This document shows positions 40,596 through 42,527 of a DNA stretch of 64,000 nt, piece after piece (the first letter of the stretch is position 1; every line of letters begins with the position of its first letter). The stretch is from a virus (taxonomy: Duplodnaviria; Caudoviricetes). A model generated the notes under the pieces. It saw nothing but the letters and a program-made list of their open reading frames with translations, was not told the origin of the DNA and did not search any database. The stretch lies in IMG/VR virus record IMGVR_UViG_2974704529_000001, positions 1 through 64,000 of that record. One strand, written 5' to 3'. Position numbers and translations under genes: made by a program.

Positions 40596-42026
40596 ATGAC
40601 GACGTTTTTGCAGAGCCTTACCGGCCAGCTCAACACGACCCGCACGGAGAACGGCGATAAGGCGCATAAGTCGTCGCTTGATCCGGTGGTCGATTACTTC
40701 GGTTTGGCGGGCGCTATGCGTGACCGCGCCGAGGCGAGCGCTGATCTGTTTGAGAAGGCGTTCCGCGTTGACCCGCAGGCTGCCGTGCGGACCCTGTTCT
40801 ATCTGCGCGATGTGCGCGGGGGCCAGGGGGAGCGTGACGTGTTCCGCGCGGGCCTCAAGCGCCTGTTTGCCGTCGACCCGTACACGGCGATGGCTGTTGT
40901 TGAGCACGTCCCGTTCTATGGGCGCTGGGATGACTTGTTCATCTTCGGGTCTCAGGTTCCGGCGGGTATCTCAGCGATCATTCGGAACCAGTGGTCCGAC
41001 GACGTTGACGCTTACGAGCGCGGCGAGAAGGTCTCGCTACTGGCTAAGTGGCTGCCGTCCGACAAGAGCCGGTCGAACTTGGAGCTGGCTATCGCGGTCC
41101 GCGAAATGCTGGGTCTGACTCAGCGGGAGTACCGCCAGACGCTTAGCGCGCTTCGGGGTCGTATCGACCTGCTCGAGCACGCCATGTCGGAGGGCGTGTA
41201 CGCGAACGTCGACTACGGCAAGATTCCGGCGCAGGCGCACCGTAAGCACGTTAAGGCGTTCCGGCGCAACGACGGCGAGCGGTACCAGGCGTTCCTAGAC
41301 GCGGTTGACCGTGGCGAGGCCAAGGTGAACACGTCGACCCTGTATCCGTACGAGCTGTACGACATGGTTAAGGGTGGGGACGCGGCTGCCGCTAACACGC
41401 TGTGGAACAACCTGCCGGACTACACGCGCCCCGGCCAGGACGCGATCGTTCTAGCGGACGTTTCAGGCTCGATGTGGGGTCGGCCTATGTCGGTGTCTGT
41501 GTCGCTGGCTTTGTACTTCGCAGAGCGCAACACAGGGCCGTATAAGGGCTACTTCATGACGTTCGCCTCTACGCCTGAGCTGGTGCAGGTAACCGGTAAG
41601 ACGTTGGAGCAGAAGCTTCACGCTATCGAGCACTCGACTGGCTGGTGTGGGTCGACCGACTTGGAAGCGGCGTTTAAGGCGATCCTGCGCGCCGGTAAGC
41701 AGTCGGGCACCGTCCCGGCGACGCTCTACGTCGTGTCGGACATGCAGTTCAATCAGGCGCTTAACCACGCTGATCTGAGCGTGTTTGAGTCGGCCCGGCT
41801 GGACTTCCAGCGGGCGGGGCTTGAGCTGCCGCATGTCGTGTTCTGGAACGTCAATGCGCGCCACGATCAGCTTCCGGCCACGATCCTTGACGGGAACGTG
41901 ACGCTGGTGTCTGGCCTGGCGGCTACGACGTTCGGCATGGCTGTGGAGGGTAAGACCCCTCGTGAGCTGGTAAATGACGTGATCAACAGCGAGCGGTACT
42001 CGCAGATCAACGTTTACGGTTCCTAA
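40596..42026 (+). CDS. Ro60/TROVE-like RNA-binding protein (DUF2828-type, helical ring plus vWA)
   Basis: TENG, LFYLRDVRGGQGER, YGRWDDL, AKWLPS motifs; vWA MIDAS DVSGSM, SDMQF, VVFWNV. Confidence 0.85.
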   Translation: MTTFLQSLTGQLNTTRTENGDKAHKSSLDPVVDYFGLAGAMRDRAEASADLFEKAFRVDPQAAVRTLFYLRDVRGGQGERDVFRAGLKRLFAVDPYTAMAVVEHVPFYGRWDDLFIFGSQVPAGISAIIRNQWSDDVDAYERGEKVSLLAKWLPSDKSRSNLELAIAVREMLGLTQREYRQTLSALRGRIDLLEHAMSEGVYANVDYGKIPAQAHRKHVKAFRRNDGERYQAFLDAVDRGEAKVNTSTLYPYELYDMVKGGDAAAANTLWNNLPDYTRPGQDAIVLADVSGSMWGRPMSVSVSLALYFAERNTGPYKGYFMTFASTPELVQVTGKTLEQKLHAIEHSTGWCGSTDLEAAFKAILRAGKQSGTVPATLYVVSDMQFNQALNHADLSVFESARLDFQRAGLELPHVVFWNVNARHDQLPATILDGNVTLVSGLAATTFGMAVEGKTPRELVNDVINSERYSQINVYGS

Positions 42027-42064
42027 TGTTTCCGATACCGGGTGCCGCCCGGTATCTTTAATCT

Positions 42065-42120
42065 TGTGGACGCTAACAGCAACTAAAACTGTTTGCGGAT
42101 AACAAAGAAATGCGTCCAGT
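42065..42120 (+). ncRNA. Y-RNA-like unit 1
   Basis: TGTGGACGC-TAACAGCAA ... GCGTCC-AGT; TGGACGC pairs with GCGTCCA. Confidence 0.65.
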
Positions 42121-42127
42121 TAAAACG

Positions 42128-42253
42128 TGTGGACTCCTACAGCAATTACAACGCTTCCACTGTTAATGGCGAGGTCTGGGTTCGAGTCCCAGTAGCGGCC
42201 CCGTGTCGCTGTAGCTTAAGGGCAGAGCGCGTATGCAAAAAACGGAGTCCAGT
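42128..42253 (+). ncRNA. Y-RNA-like unit 2 containing a circularly permuted tRNA-Asn(GUU)-like module
   Basis: TGGACTCC/GGAGTCCA closing stem; inside, in order: anticodon arm, T-arm, loop-closed acceptor stem, D-arm. Confidence 0.75.
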
Positions 42254-42260
42254 AAGCGGT

Positions 42261-42325
42261 TGTGGTCACTAACAGCAATCCTATGAAATCAATTTAACTG
42301 AAACTGATAATCAAATGTGACCAGT
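42261..42325 (+). ncRNA. Y-RNA-like unit 3
   Basis: TGTGGTCAC-TAACAGCAA ... GTGACC-AGT; TGGTCAC pairs with GTGACCA. Confidence 0.65.
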
Positions 42326-42341
42326 CTTGCCGCGCCAGATT

Positions 42342-42382
42342 AGCCCCGTATCCAGTCCTAGCCGACTGGCCGGGGCTTTTTT
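42342..42382 (+). terminator. intrinsic terminator closing the RNA array
   Basis: AGCCCCG..CCAGTC/GACTGG..CGGGGCT followed by TTTTT. Confidence 0.8.
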
Positions 42383-42527
42383 GTGCCCTAAGAAAGGATT
42401 TACATGCCTGGACCAATGTCCGCGCCCAACGGAAACGCGCTGATCACCTACAGCGCCGAGGCGCGCAAGAAAGCCGGTCGGACCGGCAAGACGGAGCTTG
42501 TGAAAGCCCGTAAGGGGGATAAGAAGA

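What the first reader, a model, noticed from the sequence alone, without database searches (positions are those of the whole stretch)
42151..42232. Circularly permuted tRNA-Asn(GUU) retaining all four arms inside RNA unit 2
Seen, 5' to 3': anticodon arm (T)TCCA-CTGTTAA-TGG(CG) with a canonical CU-GUU-AA loop (anticodon 42162-42164); variable AGGT; T-arm CTGGG-TTCGAGT-CCCAG (42176-42192); acceptor 3' strand TAGCGGC (42193-42199) joined by a 5-nt loop CCCGT to the acceptor 5' strand GTCGCTG (42205-42211); then U8-A9 'TA' and D-arm GCTT-AAGGGCA-GAGC (42214-42228). ACGC (42151-42154) pairs with GCGT (42229-42232) and connects the module to the closing stem. The tRNA is thus opened between the D and anticodon arms, and its acceptor end is sealed. 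Established: YrlA-class Y RNAs have a T-acceptor-D tRNA mimic with a loop-closed acceptor stem, in which the Ro-binding stem takes the anticodon-arm position. Inference: here an intact anticodon hairpin is kept as well, so the RNA could be a non-chargeable decoy or sensor for Asn-anticodon nucleases, or a substrate for phage Pnkp/ligase.
Basis: partly seen in the sequence, partly recalled or inferred. Interest (0 to 1): 0.88.

Follow-up and report, generated by a model that had tools for sequence, protein, structure and literature searches.

The report
Phage Y RNA mimicking whole tRNA
A mycobacteriophage small RNA gene next to a Ro60-like protein gene is shaped like a complete, rearranged and sealed tRNA, anticodon arm included; this design recurs in many known "YrlA" Y RNAs, so the Asn anticodon seen here is probably incidental.

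Summary
The described arms are all present at the stated coordinates. The RNA (42129-42252) is the middle of three small RNAs downstream of a Ro60-fold gene (40596-42026) in a cluster L mycobacteriophage. It is a YrlA-type tRNA-mimic Y RNA on a different "handle" (CCUACAGCAA).

Two corrections:
The conserved, covarying pairing is C42230-G42231 (tRNA positions 27-28) with C42170-G42171 (positions 42-43). It extends the 3-bp hairpin into a 5-bp anticodon stem with a 7-nt loop, so the tRNA is opened between positions 28 and 29.
- This hairpin is not new. It is the stem-loop that Chen et al. 2014 call the "V arm". I found it in phage Bxz1 and in half of 46 YrlA-like RNAs, always with a 7-nt loop carrying Y32-U33...R37-A38 and often U36-A37-A38.

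The anticodon is not conserved. Sister phages have GGU, GAU or 8-nt loops, and Lumosvirus has no loop. An Asn-specific decoy is therefore unlikely, and a generic whole-tRNA mimic is the better reading. ARAGORN's "tRNA-Asn" call on the de-permuted sequence means nothing, because 92% of shuffled controls are also called. Earlier notes of this scan report the same design on other DNA.

The parts
40596..42026 (+). Gene for the Ro60-fold partner protein (476 aa; annotated 'Ro-like RNA binding protein' in sister phages)
   Evidence: Pfam DUF2828 + DUF7788/vWA. An AlphaFold model from a 41-sequence alignment has pLDDT 82.7. Its 12 best PDB matches (all those with E < 0.001) are all Ro60/TROVE structures, aligned over the full length.
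42129..42252 (+). Unit 2: YrlA-like Y RNA, the middle of three tandem small RNAs
   Evidence: Rfam YrlA hit over 42130-42254, 23.1 bits, E 0.015, below the gathering score. Conserved in 62 cluster L records. All 20 sequences read have three units.
42130..42137 (+). 5' strand of the 8-bp terminal stem (TGGACTCC); pairs with 42244-42251
   Evidence: Constrained folds of all homologues keep it. It covaries, ACTCC/GGAGT versus ACCCC/GGGGT.
42136..42145 (+). Handle motif CCTACAGCAA, the presumed docking site for the Ro-like protein. It replaces the GNCGAA motif of classical YrlA.
   Evidence: ACAGCAA is invariant in units 1-3 of all cluster L phages. It matches the conserved motif of Rfam Dicty_Class_I_RNA at 20.8 bits. 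The same motif lies next to DUF2828 genes in L240 and L286.
42157..42169 (+). Hairpin CCA-CTGTTAA-TGG: tRNA positions 29-31, loop 32-38 (GTT = 34-36), 39-41
   Evidence: Sequence. The 3-bp plus 7-nt design is found in 23 of 46 YrlA-like RNAs, against 2-6 for any other loop length. Loop signature.
42170..42171 (+). Positions 42-43 (CG); pair with C42230-G42231
   Evidence: Offset test: both pairs form in 40 of 50 RNAs at a 5-nt variable loop, against 5-14 of 50 elsewhere. Both pairs show changes on both sides.
42172..42175 (+). Variable loop AGGT (class I length); U48 pairs with A15
   Evidence: The 15:48 pair covaries within cluster L.
42176..42192 (+). T arm CTGGG-TTCGAGT-CCCAG
42193..42211 (+). 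Sealed 7-bp acceptor-like stem TAGCGGC/GTCGCTG with loop CCCGT (42200-04)
   Evidence: All 7 pairs show changes on both sides across homologues. Length is 7-12 bp in cluster L.
42212..42228 (+). U8-A9 and D arm GCTT-AAGGGCA-GAGC
42229..42231 (+). G26, then C27-G28, which pair with 42170-71 and complete a 5-bp anticodon stem. The chain then leaves for the terminal stem.
42244..42251 (+). 3' strand of the terminal stem (GGAGTCCA)
42066..42119 (+). Unit 1: short handle-bearing RNA without a tRNA module
42262..42324 (+). Unit 3: short handle-bearing RNA without a tRNA module
   Evidence: Weak Class I RNA match at 14.4 bits.
42342..42382 (+). Terminator-like hairpin AGCCCCG...CGGGGCT plus a T run, closing the RNA array
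   Evidence: Read from the sequence; not scanned with the terminator tool.

Best explanation
Unit 2 is the tRNA-mimicking partner RNA (YrlA type) of the phage's Ro60-fold protein.

Architecture:
- An 8-bp terminal stem and the CCUACAGCAA handle presumably dock the RNA on the protein ring. This step is inferred.
- The rest folds as a whole tRNA wired in a different order: T arm, loop-sealed 7-bp acceptor stem, U8-A9, D arm, 4-nt variable loop, and a composite anticodon arm.
- The composite arm has two pairs formed between the 3' segment (C27-G28, 42230-31) and positions 42-43 (42170-71). These are continued without a break on the 3' strand by the 3-bp hairpin (42157-59 / 42167-69) and its 7-nt loop.
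- The handle is therefore attached through a nick between positions 28 and 29.

What is conserved: the tRNA shape and the generic loop signature (pyrimidine 32, U33, purine 37, A38, often U36-A37-A38). The anticodon is not conserved. GUU here is most likely a free-varying or recently copied feature.

Function, inferred from Y RNA biology: the module presents a non-chargeable tRNA look-alike. This either recruits a tRNA-binding enzyme to the Ro-like ring or baits or titrates one during infection.
For: Partner protein and array:
- The partner protein has the Ro60 fold.
- The RNA lies 103 nt downstream on the same strand, in a three-unit array conserved in all cluster L phages read.

tRNA-like core:
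- Rfam YrlA is the best family match and places a 16-nt insertion exactly at the hairpin.
- The T, D and acceptor arms and the 15:48 tertiary pair covary.

Composite anticodon arm:
- 27-28:42-43 pair in 40 of 50 RNAs at the correct register, against 5-14 of 50 at other registers.
- Within cluster L these pairs change CG:CG, UU:GG, GC:GC.
- A cis hairpin with a loop of exactly 7 nt occurs in 23 of 46, against 2-6 for other loop lengths. 7 of 46 instead continue the stem in trans, and none do both.
- Loop logo: U33 in 19 of 21, A38 in 19 of 21, purine 37 in 18 of 21, positions 34 and 35 near uniform. Y32-U33-R37-A38 is seen in 14 of 21, against a 2.4% background.
- The same hairpin is in phage Bxz1 YrlA beside a TROVE Ro gene.

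Published support:
- YrlA RNAs are tRNA mimics modified by TruB and DusA, and 'resemble circularly permuted tRNAs' (PMC4201824; 10.1101/312249).
- The 5-nt variable-loop register used here agrees with the S. Typhimurium crystal structure numbering in 10.1101/312249.
Against: - No expression, end-mapping or probing data are available here.
- Thermodynamic folding alone does not favour the cloverleaf.
- Coaxial stacking of the hairpin on the 2-bp helix is inferred from the zero-nucleotide junction, not shown. Chen et al. 2014 read the same hairpin as a variable arm.
- The family sample came from one T-loop/D-arm pattern, capped at about 120 rows per collection. It was not corrected for phylogeny, and only some members have a confirmed Ro or DUF2828 neighbour.
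- The cis-hairpin rows were selected for pairing.
- The classical Ro-binding motif GNCGAA is absent, and the Rfam score is far below gathering.
- The anticodon arm's near-identity to the phage's tRNA-Asn could mean that identity does matter in this subclade.
Confidence: 0.6

Rival explanations
1. The hairpin is a variable-arm-like side branch, as labelled 'V' by Chen et al. 2014. On this reading the handle stem stacks under the D stem in the anticodon-stem position, as in the Salmonella YrlA crystal structure, and the hairpin projects sideways.
For: This is the published reading of the same stem-loop (PMC4201824). In the trans-type relatives (Lumosvirus, Salmonella type) the handle does continue the anticodon stem (10.1101/312249).
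Against: The hairpin lies 5' of the covarying positions 42-43, whereas a tRNA variable arm lies 3' of position 43. The variable loop already has a class I length of 4-5 nt. The hairpin abuts the 2-bp helix with no linker, while the handle is joined by linkers of 6 nt and more. 3 + 2 bp plus a 7-nt loop reproduces anticodon-arm dimensions and the loop signature.
Confidence: 0.2
2. Asn-specific decoy or sensor. The GUU loop and the tRNA-Asn-like stem are selected to bait an enzyme that reads the tRNA-Asn anticodon, such as a host anticodon nuclease or a modification enzyme. The RNA would protect real tRNA-Asn or report its damage to the phage's Pnkp and RNA ligase.
For: Of the phage's 11 tRNAs, tRNA-Asn(GUU) is closest to the de-permuted module (55 of 70 identities, against at most 50). 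The anticodon arms differ by one flipped pair. The sister phage genome encodes a polynucleotide kinase, an RNA ligase and a tRNA array. A Ro60-like phage protein counters the ppl defence (10.1101/2024.10.10.617714).
Against: Position 35 changes to G in phages with otherwise near-identical RNA, and to A in others. Two lineages have 8-nt loops, and Lumosvirus has lost the loop while keeping the protein and the three-unit array. Family-wide, positions 34 and 35 are near uniform. Most of the similarity to tRNA-Asn lies in positions that are consensus for hairpin-type YrlAs (CG, CGC...GCG).
Confidence: 0.12
3. A true circularly permuted tRNA gene that is processed (circularised, then opened at the acceptor loop) into a working tRNA-Asn.
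For: All four arms are present. M. smegmatis YrlA with a 7-bp acceptor stem is cut by RNase P and receives CCA (reported in 10.1101/312249, citing Chen 2014). Some GenBank records annotate the spot as tRNA-Asn or tRNA-Thr.
Against: The phage already has a normal tRNA-Asn(GUU). The anticodon is not conserved. No bacterial splicing-type machinery for the needed ligation at 28/29 is known. The terminal stem and handle are conserved as in non-tRNA units 1 and 3. The GenBank 71-nt 'tRNA' spans the handle and has no acceptor pairing, and ARAGORN rejects it.
Confidence: 0.03
4. Chance resemblance: the hairpin is not formed or has no role.
For: Only 3 Watson-Crick pairs. The minimum-energy fold does not form it. 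ARAGORN accepts 92% of shuffled hairpins.
Against: The loop core UGNUAA is kept across two phage genera while the flanking linkers diverge. The same design is strongly enriched family-wide.
Confidence: 0.03

Closest known systems
YrlA-type bacterial and phage Y RNAs bound by Ro60/Rsr (Rfam RF02553; Chen et al. 2014, PMC4201824; structure in Wang et al. 2018, 10.1101/312249)
   Same: Encoded beside a Ro60-fold gene on the same strand. Has T arm, loop-sealed acceptor-like stem, U8-A9 and D arm in that order, with the tRNA tertiary nucleotides and a covarying 15:48 pair. Has the stem-loop upstream of T (their 'V'). The 7-bp acceptor stem matches M. smegmatis YrlA.
   Different: The partner protein scores as DUF2828, not TROVE, in Pfam. 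The handle is CCUACAGCAA instead of GNCGAA. The Rfam score is 23 bits against a cut-off of 69. My reading of the 'V' hairpin as the lower part of a nicked anticodon arm differs from the published label. The published Salmonella structure has no such loop.
Circularly permuted tRNA genes of Cyanidioschyzon merolae and some archaea (cited in 10.1101/312249)
   Same: The 3' half precedes the 5' half, the acceptor end is initially closed, and the RNA ends pair near the anticodon stem.
   Different: Those are matured into working tRNAs through a circular intermediate. Here nothing suggests maturation, and the anticodon drifts among relatives.
Handle-bearing small RNAs next to DUF2828 genes, and Dictyostelium Class I RNAs (Rfam RF01414; Kjellin et al. 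2021, PMC7919456)
   Same: A short stem joins the 5' and 3' ends, a conserved 11-nt motif sits directly after the 5' strand, and length is about 55-60 nt for units 1 and 3. The five universally conserved motif positions (U3, C6, C9, A10, A11) are all present.
   Different: Unit 2 carries a 96-nt tRNA-like insert. Rfam scores are below gathering (20.8 and 14.4 against 41.5). No link between Class I RNAs and a DUF2828 protein was tested here.
t6A-type anticodon loops of ANN-decoding tRNAs (36-UAA-38 determinant of bacterial TsaBD; PMC13276492)
   Same: The loop is C32-U33-N-N-U36-A37-A38 with positions 34 and 35 free. 12 of 21 hairpin-type YrlA loops, including this one, have UAA at 36-38.
   Different: This is only a sequence resemblance. 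No modification was tested, and 9 of 21 loops lack UAA.

Membership tests
YrlA (Rfam RF02553 / Chen et al. 2014) | Encoded within about 4 kb of a Ro60 orthologue, on the same strand | tested here: met
   103 nt downstream of 40596-42026 (+). The model of that protein matches Ro60/TROVE structures as its 12 best PDB matches. Pfam itself calls it DUF2828, not TROVE.
YrlA (Rfam RF02553 / Chen et al. 2014) | Near-invariant T and D stem-loops with tRNA tertiary nucleotides and a covarying Levitt pair | tested here: met
   A15:U48 and G15:C48 alternate within cluster L.
YrlA (Rfam RF02553 / Chen et al. 2014) | Loop-closed acceptor-like stem between the T and D arms | tested here: met
   7 bp here and 7-12 bp in relatives. 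All 7 pairs show changes on both sides.
YrlA (Rfam RF02553 / Chen et al. 2014) | GNCGAAN0-1G Ro-binding motif near the 5' end | tested here: not met
   Absent. CCUACAGCAA follows the terminal stem instead.
YrlA (Rfam RF02553 / Chen et al. 2014) | Score at or above the Rfam gathering threshold (69 bits) | tested here: not met
   23.1 bits. Phage Bxz1, whose YrlA-like locus lies beside a TROVE Ro gene, also reaches only 32.5 bits, so this test is weak.
YrlA (Rfam RF02553 / Chen et al. 2014) | Bound by the Ro protein; carries pseudouridine 55 and dihydrouridine | not testable with these tools
   Needs immunoprecipitation and modification mapping.
Canonical tRNA-Asn gene | Contiguous cloverleaf with free acceptor ends, recognised by tRNA finders | tested here: not met
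   ARAGORN finds none in the window or in sister loci. Rfam tRNA scores 14 bits against 29.
Canonical tRNA-Asn gene | Anticodon conserved among orthologues | tested here: not met
   GUU, GGU, GAU, 8-nt loops, and no loop at all.
Canonical tRNA-Asn gene | The de-permuted sequence is a valid cloverleaf | tested here: inconclusive
   ARAGORN calls it tRNA-Asn, but it also of 1000 shuffled-hairpin and 711 of 1000 random-hairpin controls.
Class II tRNA variable arm (the 'V arm' reading) | Extra hairpin located 3' of position 43-45, before position 48 | tested here: not met
   The hairpin lies 5' of the covarying positions 42-43, and a 4-5-nt variable loop follows them.
Handle RNAs of DUF2828 proteins / Dictyostelium Class I-like (RF01414) | Short terminal stem plus a conserved 11-nt motif directly after its 5' strand | tested here: met
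   Present in units 1-3. Rfam scores are 20.8 and 14.4 bits, below the gathering score of 41.5. DUF2828 genes lie next to the same motif in L240 and L286.

The most novel reading that the evidence does not exclude
About half of YrlA-type Y RNAs, whether partnered with TROVE or with DUF2828 proteins, display a complete anticodon stem-loop on a nicked anticodon stem. The published 'V arm' would then be mis-assigned. The loop carries the C32-U33-N-N-U36-A37-A38 signature, which is the determinant for bacterial t6A synthase. On this reading Ro-type particles present a whole, non-chargeable tRNA decoy to enzymes that read the anticodon loop, either modification enzymes or tRNA-cleaving defence nucleases. 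In phages this would serve counter-defence.
Probability: 0.25. Interest if true: 0.8.

Novelty: new variant of a known kind. Interest (0 to 1): 0.6.

Why it matters
The effector that binds the tRNA-like domain of YrlA Y RNAs is still unknown. The published structure is described as lacking an anticodon loop. If many YrlAs, including this phage RNA, carry a full anticodon arm with a conserved loop signature, the search narrows to enzymes that read the anticodon loop. That is directly testable, for example by t6A mapping at A42165, TsaBD binding, or cleavage assays.

It also ties the tRNA mimic to the large, little-studied group of phage DUF2828 Ro60-like proteins. One of these has been reported to counter a bacterial defence system.

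On the practical side, several GenBank phage records annotate this RNA wrongly as tRNA-Asn or tRNA-Thr.

Tried and rejected
- **ARAGORN on de-permuted constructs.** It calls tRNA-Asn, but the shuffle control shows the call is driven by the other three arms. Rejected as evidence.
- **Rfam at gathering thresholds.** Nothing in the window.
- **Free-energy folding.** No signal: z = -0.2. Constrained folds are ambiguous for the linkers.
No covariation in sister phages. Rejected in favour of 27-28:42-43.
- **Loop pairing with units 1 and 3.** The loop CUGUUA is complementary to UAACAG in their handles, but GGU and GAU variants face an unchanged handle. Judged coincidental.
- **Handle-pattern scan of viral contigs.** Mostly chance coding matches; one new relative, L052.
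- **The genome search 'relatives'.** Not available for a virus record.
- **Partner protein.** The single-sequence AlphaFold model was too poor (pLDDT 41.6). phmmer and profile searches of PDB sequences found no Ro60. The fold search on the alignment-based model did.
- **Supplementary tables of Chen et al. 2014.** Not held, so I could not check whether cluster L phages were among their 22 phages.
- **Bas63 gp130.** Its homology to this protein was not checked directly. Only Felixounavirus homologues at 33-34% identity were seen.

Full report
**Where we are.** The window is a cluster L mycobacteriophage of the genus Faithunavirus. Its nearest records are Archie and Bazzle, at 93.8% identity over 42030-42400. 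The whole record is 77,876 bp.

The gene at 40596-42026 (+) is annotated 'Ro-like RNA binding protein' in sister phages. Pfam sees DUF2828 plus a vWA domain. Sequence searches against PDB find no Ro60, and a single-sequence model was useless. A model built from a 41-sequence alignment reached pLDDT 82.7. Its 12 best PDB matches (all those with E < 0.001) are Ro60/TROVE structures aligned over the full length: Thermus phage phiLo, Xenopus, Deinococcus and human. The partner is therefore a Ro60-fold protein.

Downstream lie three units. Each is closed by GTGGNC...GNCCAG and carries ACAGCAA right after the 5' strand. A terminator-like hairpin follows. All 20 sequences I read have the three units.

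**The observation.** The T arm, D arm, U8-A9 and the sealed acceptor stem are conserved across cluster L. The acceptor stem varies from 7 to 12 bp with full compensation. The 15:48 tertiary pair switches between A:U and G:C in step. Rfam's YrlA model is the best family match (42130-42254, 23.1 bits, E 0.015).

Folded alone, the RNA is no more stable than shuffles. ARAGORN finds no tRNA in the window. Three GenBank records annotate 71 nt here as tRNA-Asn or tRNA-Thr. That stretch runs from the handle to the acceptor 3' strand and has no acceptor pairing.

**A control that matters.** When I cut the acceptor loop and joined the D arm to the hairpin, ARAGORN called tRNA-Asn(gtt). It also calls nearly every homologue, including Lumosvirus as 'tRNA-Phe(aaa)'. 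It further of 1000 constructs with the 17-nt hairpin shuffled, and 711 of 1000 with random 17-mers. The call therefore says nothing about the anticodon arm. A strict fixed-register test (at least 3 Watson-Crick pairs, at least 4 of 5 pairs, U33, purine 37) passes in about 1% of controls.

**The hairpin across cluster L.**
- The window, Archie, Wilder and Faith1: CCA-CUGUUAA-UGG.
- Zakai, Loadrie and Vetrix: CUGGUAA.
- Crossroads and a viral contig (L052): 8-nt loops CUGGUAAA and CUGAUAAA.
- CELFI, Bromden, Chaser and DyoEdafos: UCC-AUGAUAA-GGA.
- The five Lumosvirus phages: no such loop.

The core UGNUAA is kept in two genera while the flanking linkers diverge. Position 35 takes three values, and a sister genus does without the loop.

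**The hairpin is known.** Chen et al. 2014 (PMC4201824) report YrlA RNAs next to Ro60 in 254 bacteria and 22 phages, including mycobacteriophage ET08. [quoted passage not shown] Wang et al. [quoted passage not shown] They also say Salmonella YrlA 'lacks the anticodon loop'.

In phage Bxz1 the YrlA upstream of Ro gp220 reads CUC-AUUGCAA-GAG before AGAGGUC and the T arm. That is the same 3-bp, 7-nt design. From memory, Bxz1 belongs to cluster C like ET08; I did not check this.

**A wider sample.** I scanned genome, viral and metagenome contigs for a T loop, 22-30 nt, then a D arm. Of 394 matches, 313 lie inside ordinary tRNAs. Forty are non-redundant RNAs with a closed acceptor stem. Adding 10 cluster L and Bxz1 representatives gives 50. 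Some have a TROVE or DUF2828 gene alongside.

Three tests followed.
1. **Register of 27-28:42-43.** The two bases after N26 pair with the two bases lying 5 nt upstream of the T stem in 40 of 50 RNAs. At any other offset the count is 5-14 of 50. Allowing a 4- or 5-nt loop gives 46 of 50. Sliding the 3' partner gives 11-22. This register matches the Salmonella crystal numbering, which has a 5-nt variable loop.
2. **Loop length.** Directly 5' of those two bases, three bases pair across a loop of exactly 7 nt in 23 of 46 RNAs. Every other loop length from 3 to 12 scores 2-6. In 7 of 46 the stem instead continues in trans, as in Salmonella and the Lumosvirus representatives (Lolly9, Whirlwind). No RNA does both.
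3. **Loop content.** In 21 non-redundant loops, position 32 is C or U in 17, position 33 is U in 19, and positions 34 and 35 are near uniform. Position 36 is U in 14, position 37 is A or G in 18, and position 38 is A in 19. The signature Y32-U33-R37-A38 occurs in 14 of 21 against a 2.4% background. Excluding the cluster L representatives it occurs in 12 of 17. These probabilities are not corrected for relatedness.

On a 20-sequence alignment all five stem pairs show changes on both sides. Those rows were selected for pairing, so tests 1 and 2 are the unbiased ones.

**What follows for this RNA.**
- These two pairs share a continuous 3' strand with the hairpin. Together they make a 5-bp stem and a 7-nt loop, which are the dimensions of an anticodon arm.
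- The handle joins through single-stranded linkers at a nick between positions 28 and 29.
- The hairpin lies 5' of positions 42-43, so it is not where a variable arm would be.
- Coaxial stacking is inferred from the zero-nucleotide junction. It is not shown.

**Is it Asn?** Joined at 28/29, the module is closest to the phage's own tRNA-Asn(GUU) among its 11 tRNAs, with 55 of 70 identities against at most 50. The arm G-CGCCA-CUGUUAA-UGGCG compares with G-CGCGA-CUGUUAA-UCGCG, a difference of one flipped pair. But CG, CGC...GCG and CUNNUAA are also the consensus of hairpin-type YrlAs from unrelated bacteria. The anticodon also drifts among close relatives. I therefore rate an Asn-specific role at about 0.12.

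**Leads on function.**
- 12 of 21 loops, including this one, have U36-A37-A38. Bacterial t6A synthase strictly requires 36-UAA-38, tolerates any base at positions 34 and 35, and also reads the D stem (PMC13276492). This is a resemblance, not a test.
- A 7-bp acceptor stem made M. smegmatis YrlA an RNase P substrate (10.1101/312249).
- The sister phage Archie encodes a polynucleotide kinase, an RNA ligase and 12 tRNAs.
- A Ro60-like protein of phage Bas63 counters the ppl defence (10.1101/2024.10.10.617714). I did not verify that it is homologous to the protein here.

**Earlier notes of this scan.** They report the same permuted-tRNA-with-anticodon-arm design on a CAGCAA handle in other phages. 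They also report the likeness of the handle to Dictyostelium Class I RNAs. My Rfam result and the published motif (PMC7919456) agree with that.

**Verdict.** The RNA is a new variant of the YrlA kind. The main added value is the re-reading of the 'V arm' as a nicked anticodon arm with a conserved loop signature.

Noticed in passing
42066-42119 and 42262-42324; motif at 42136-42145: All three units have a short end-joining stem followed by (C/U)(U)ACAGCAA. Rfam's Dictyostelium Class I RNA model hits units 2 and 3 at 20.8 and 14.4 bits, and the five universally conserved positions of the 11-nt Class I motif are present. The published paper calls Class I RNAs unique to dictyostelids.
   Followed up: partly
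L001:1900-1970, L002:400-470, L003:400-470: GenBank records of phages Wilder and Gardann (tRNA-Asn) and Zakai (tRNA-Thr) annotate 71 nt of this Y-like RNA as a tRNA gene. The stretch has no acceptor pairing and ARAGORN rejects it, so it is probably a mis-annotation.
   Followed up: yes
L013:312-446 (phage DuncansLeg): Compared with its relative Whirlwind, this RNA has 5 extra nucleotides (GGGTT), a duplication in the 5' strand of the T arm. The module may be damaged in this phage.
   Followed up: no
L228 (viral contig), upstream of its T arm: A perfect tRNA-Asn-like anticodon arm GCGA-CUGUUAA-UCGC is followed by about 23 extra nt, then a T arm, a sealed acceptor stem and a D arm. This is a different wiring of a similar mimic, and it is unexplained.
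   Followed up: no
L277, L321, L335, L365: These contigs each hold two YrlA-like modules in tandem, usually one hairpin-type and one of another type. TROVE genes lie next to L321, L335 and L365.
   Followed up: partly
Proteins P0010, P0020, P0029, P0051, P0100: Close homologues of the phage Ro-like protein (53-74% identity) are encoded on large contigs of Mycolicibacterium and Mycobacteroides abscessus. They are probably prophages, or else a host copy of the system.
   Followed up: no
L423 (phage Archie 33000-70000), equivalent to about 49.8-57 kb of the window: The sister phage is annotated with PRPP synthetase, nicotinamide phosphoribosyltransferase, polynucleotide kinase and RNA ligase, followed by a 12-tRNA array. 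This looks like a possible RNA-repair and NAD-salvage counter-defence kit in the same early region.
   Followed up: no
L240, L286, L318, L344, L381 (viral and metagenome contigs): tRNA-like modules with sealed acceptor stems sit on ACAGCAA-type handles in unrelated phage contigs. L240 and L286 have a DUF2828 gene (32% identity) alongside.
   Followed up: partly
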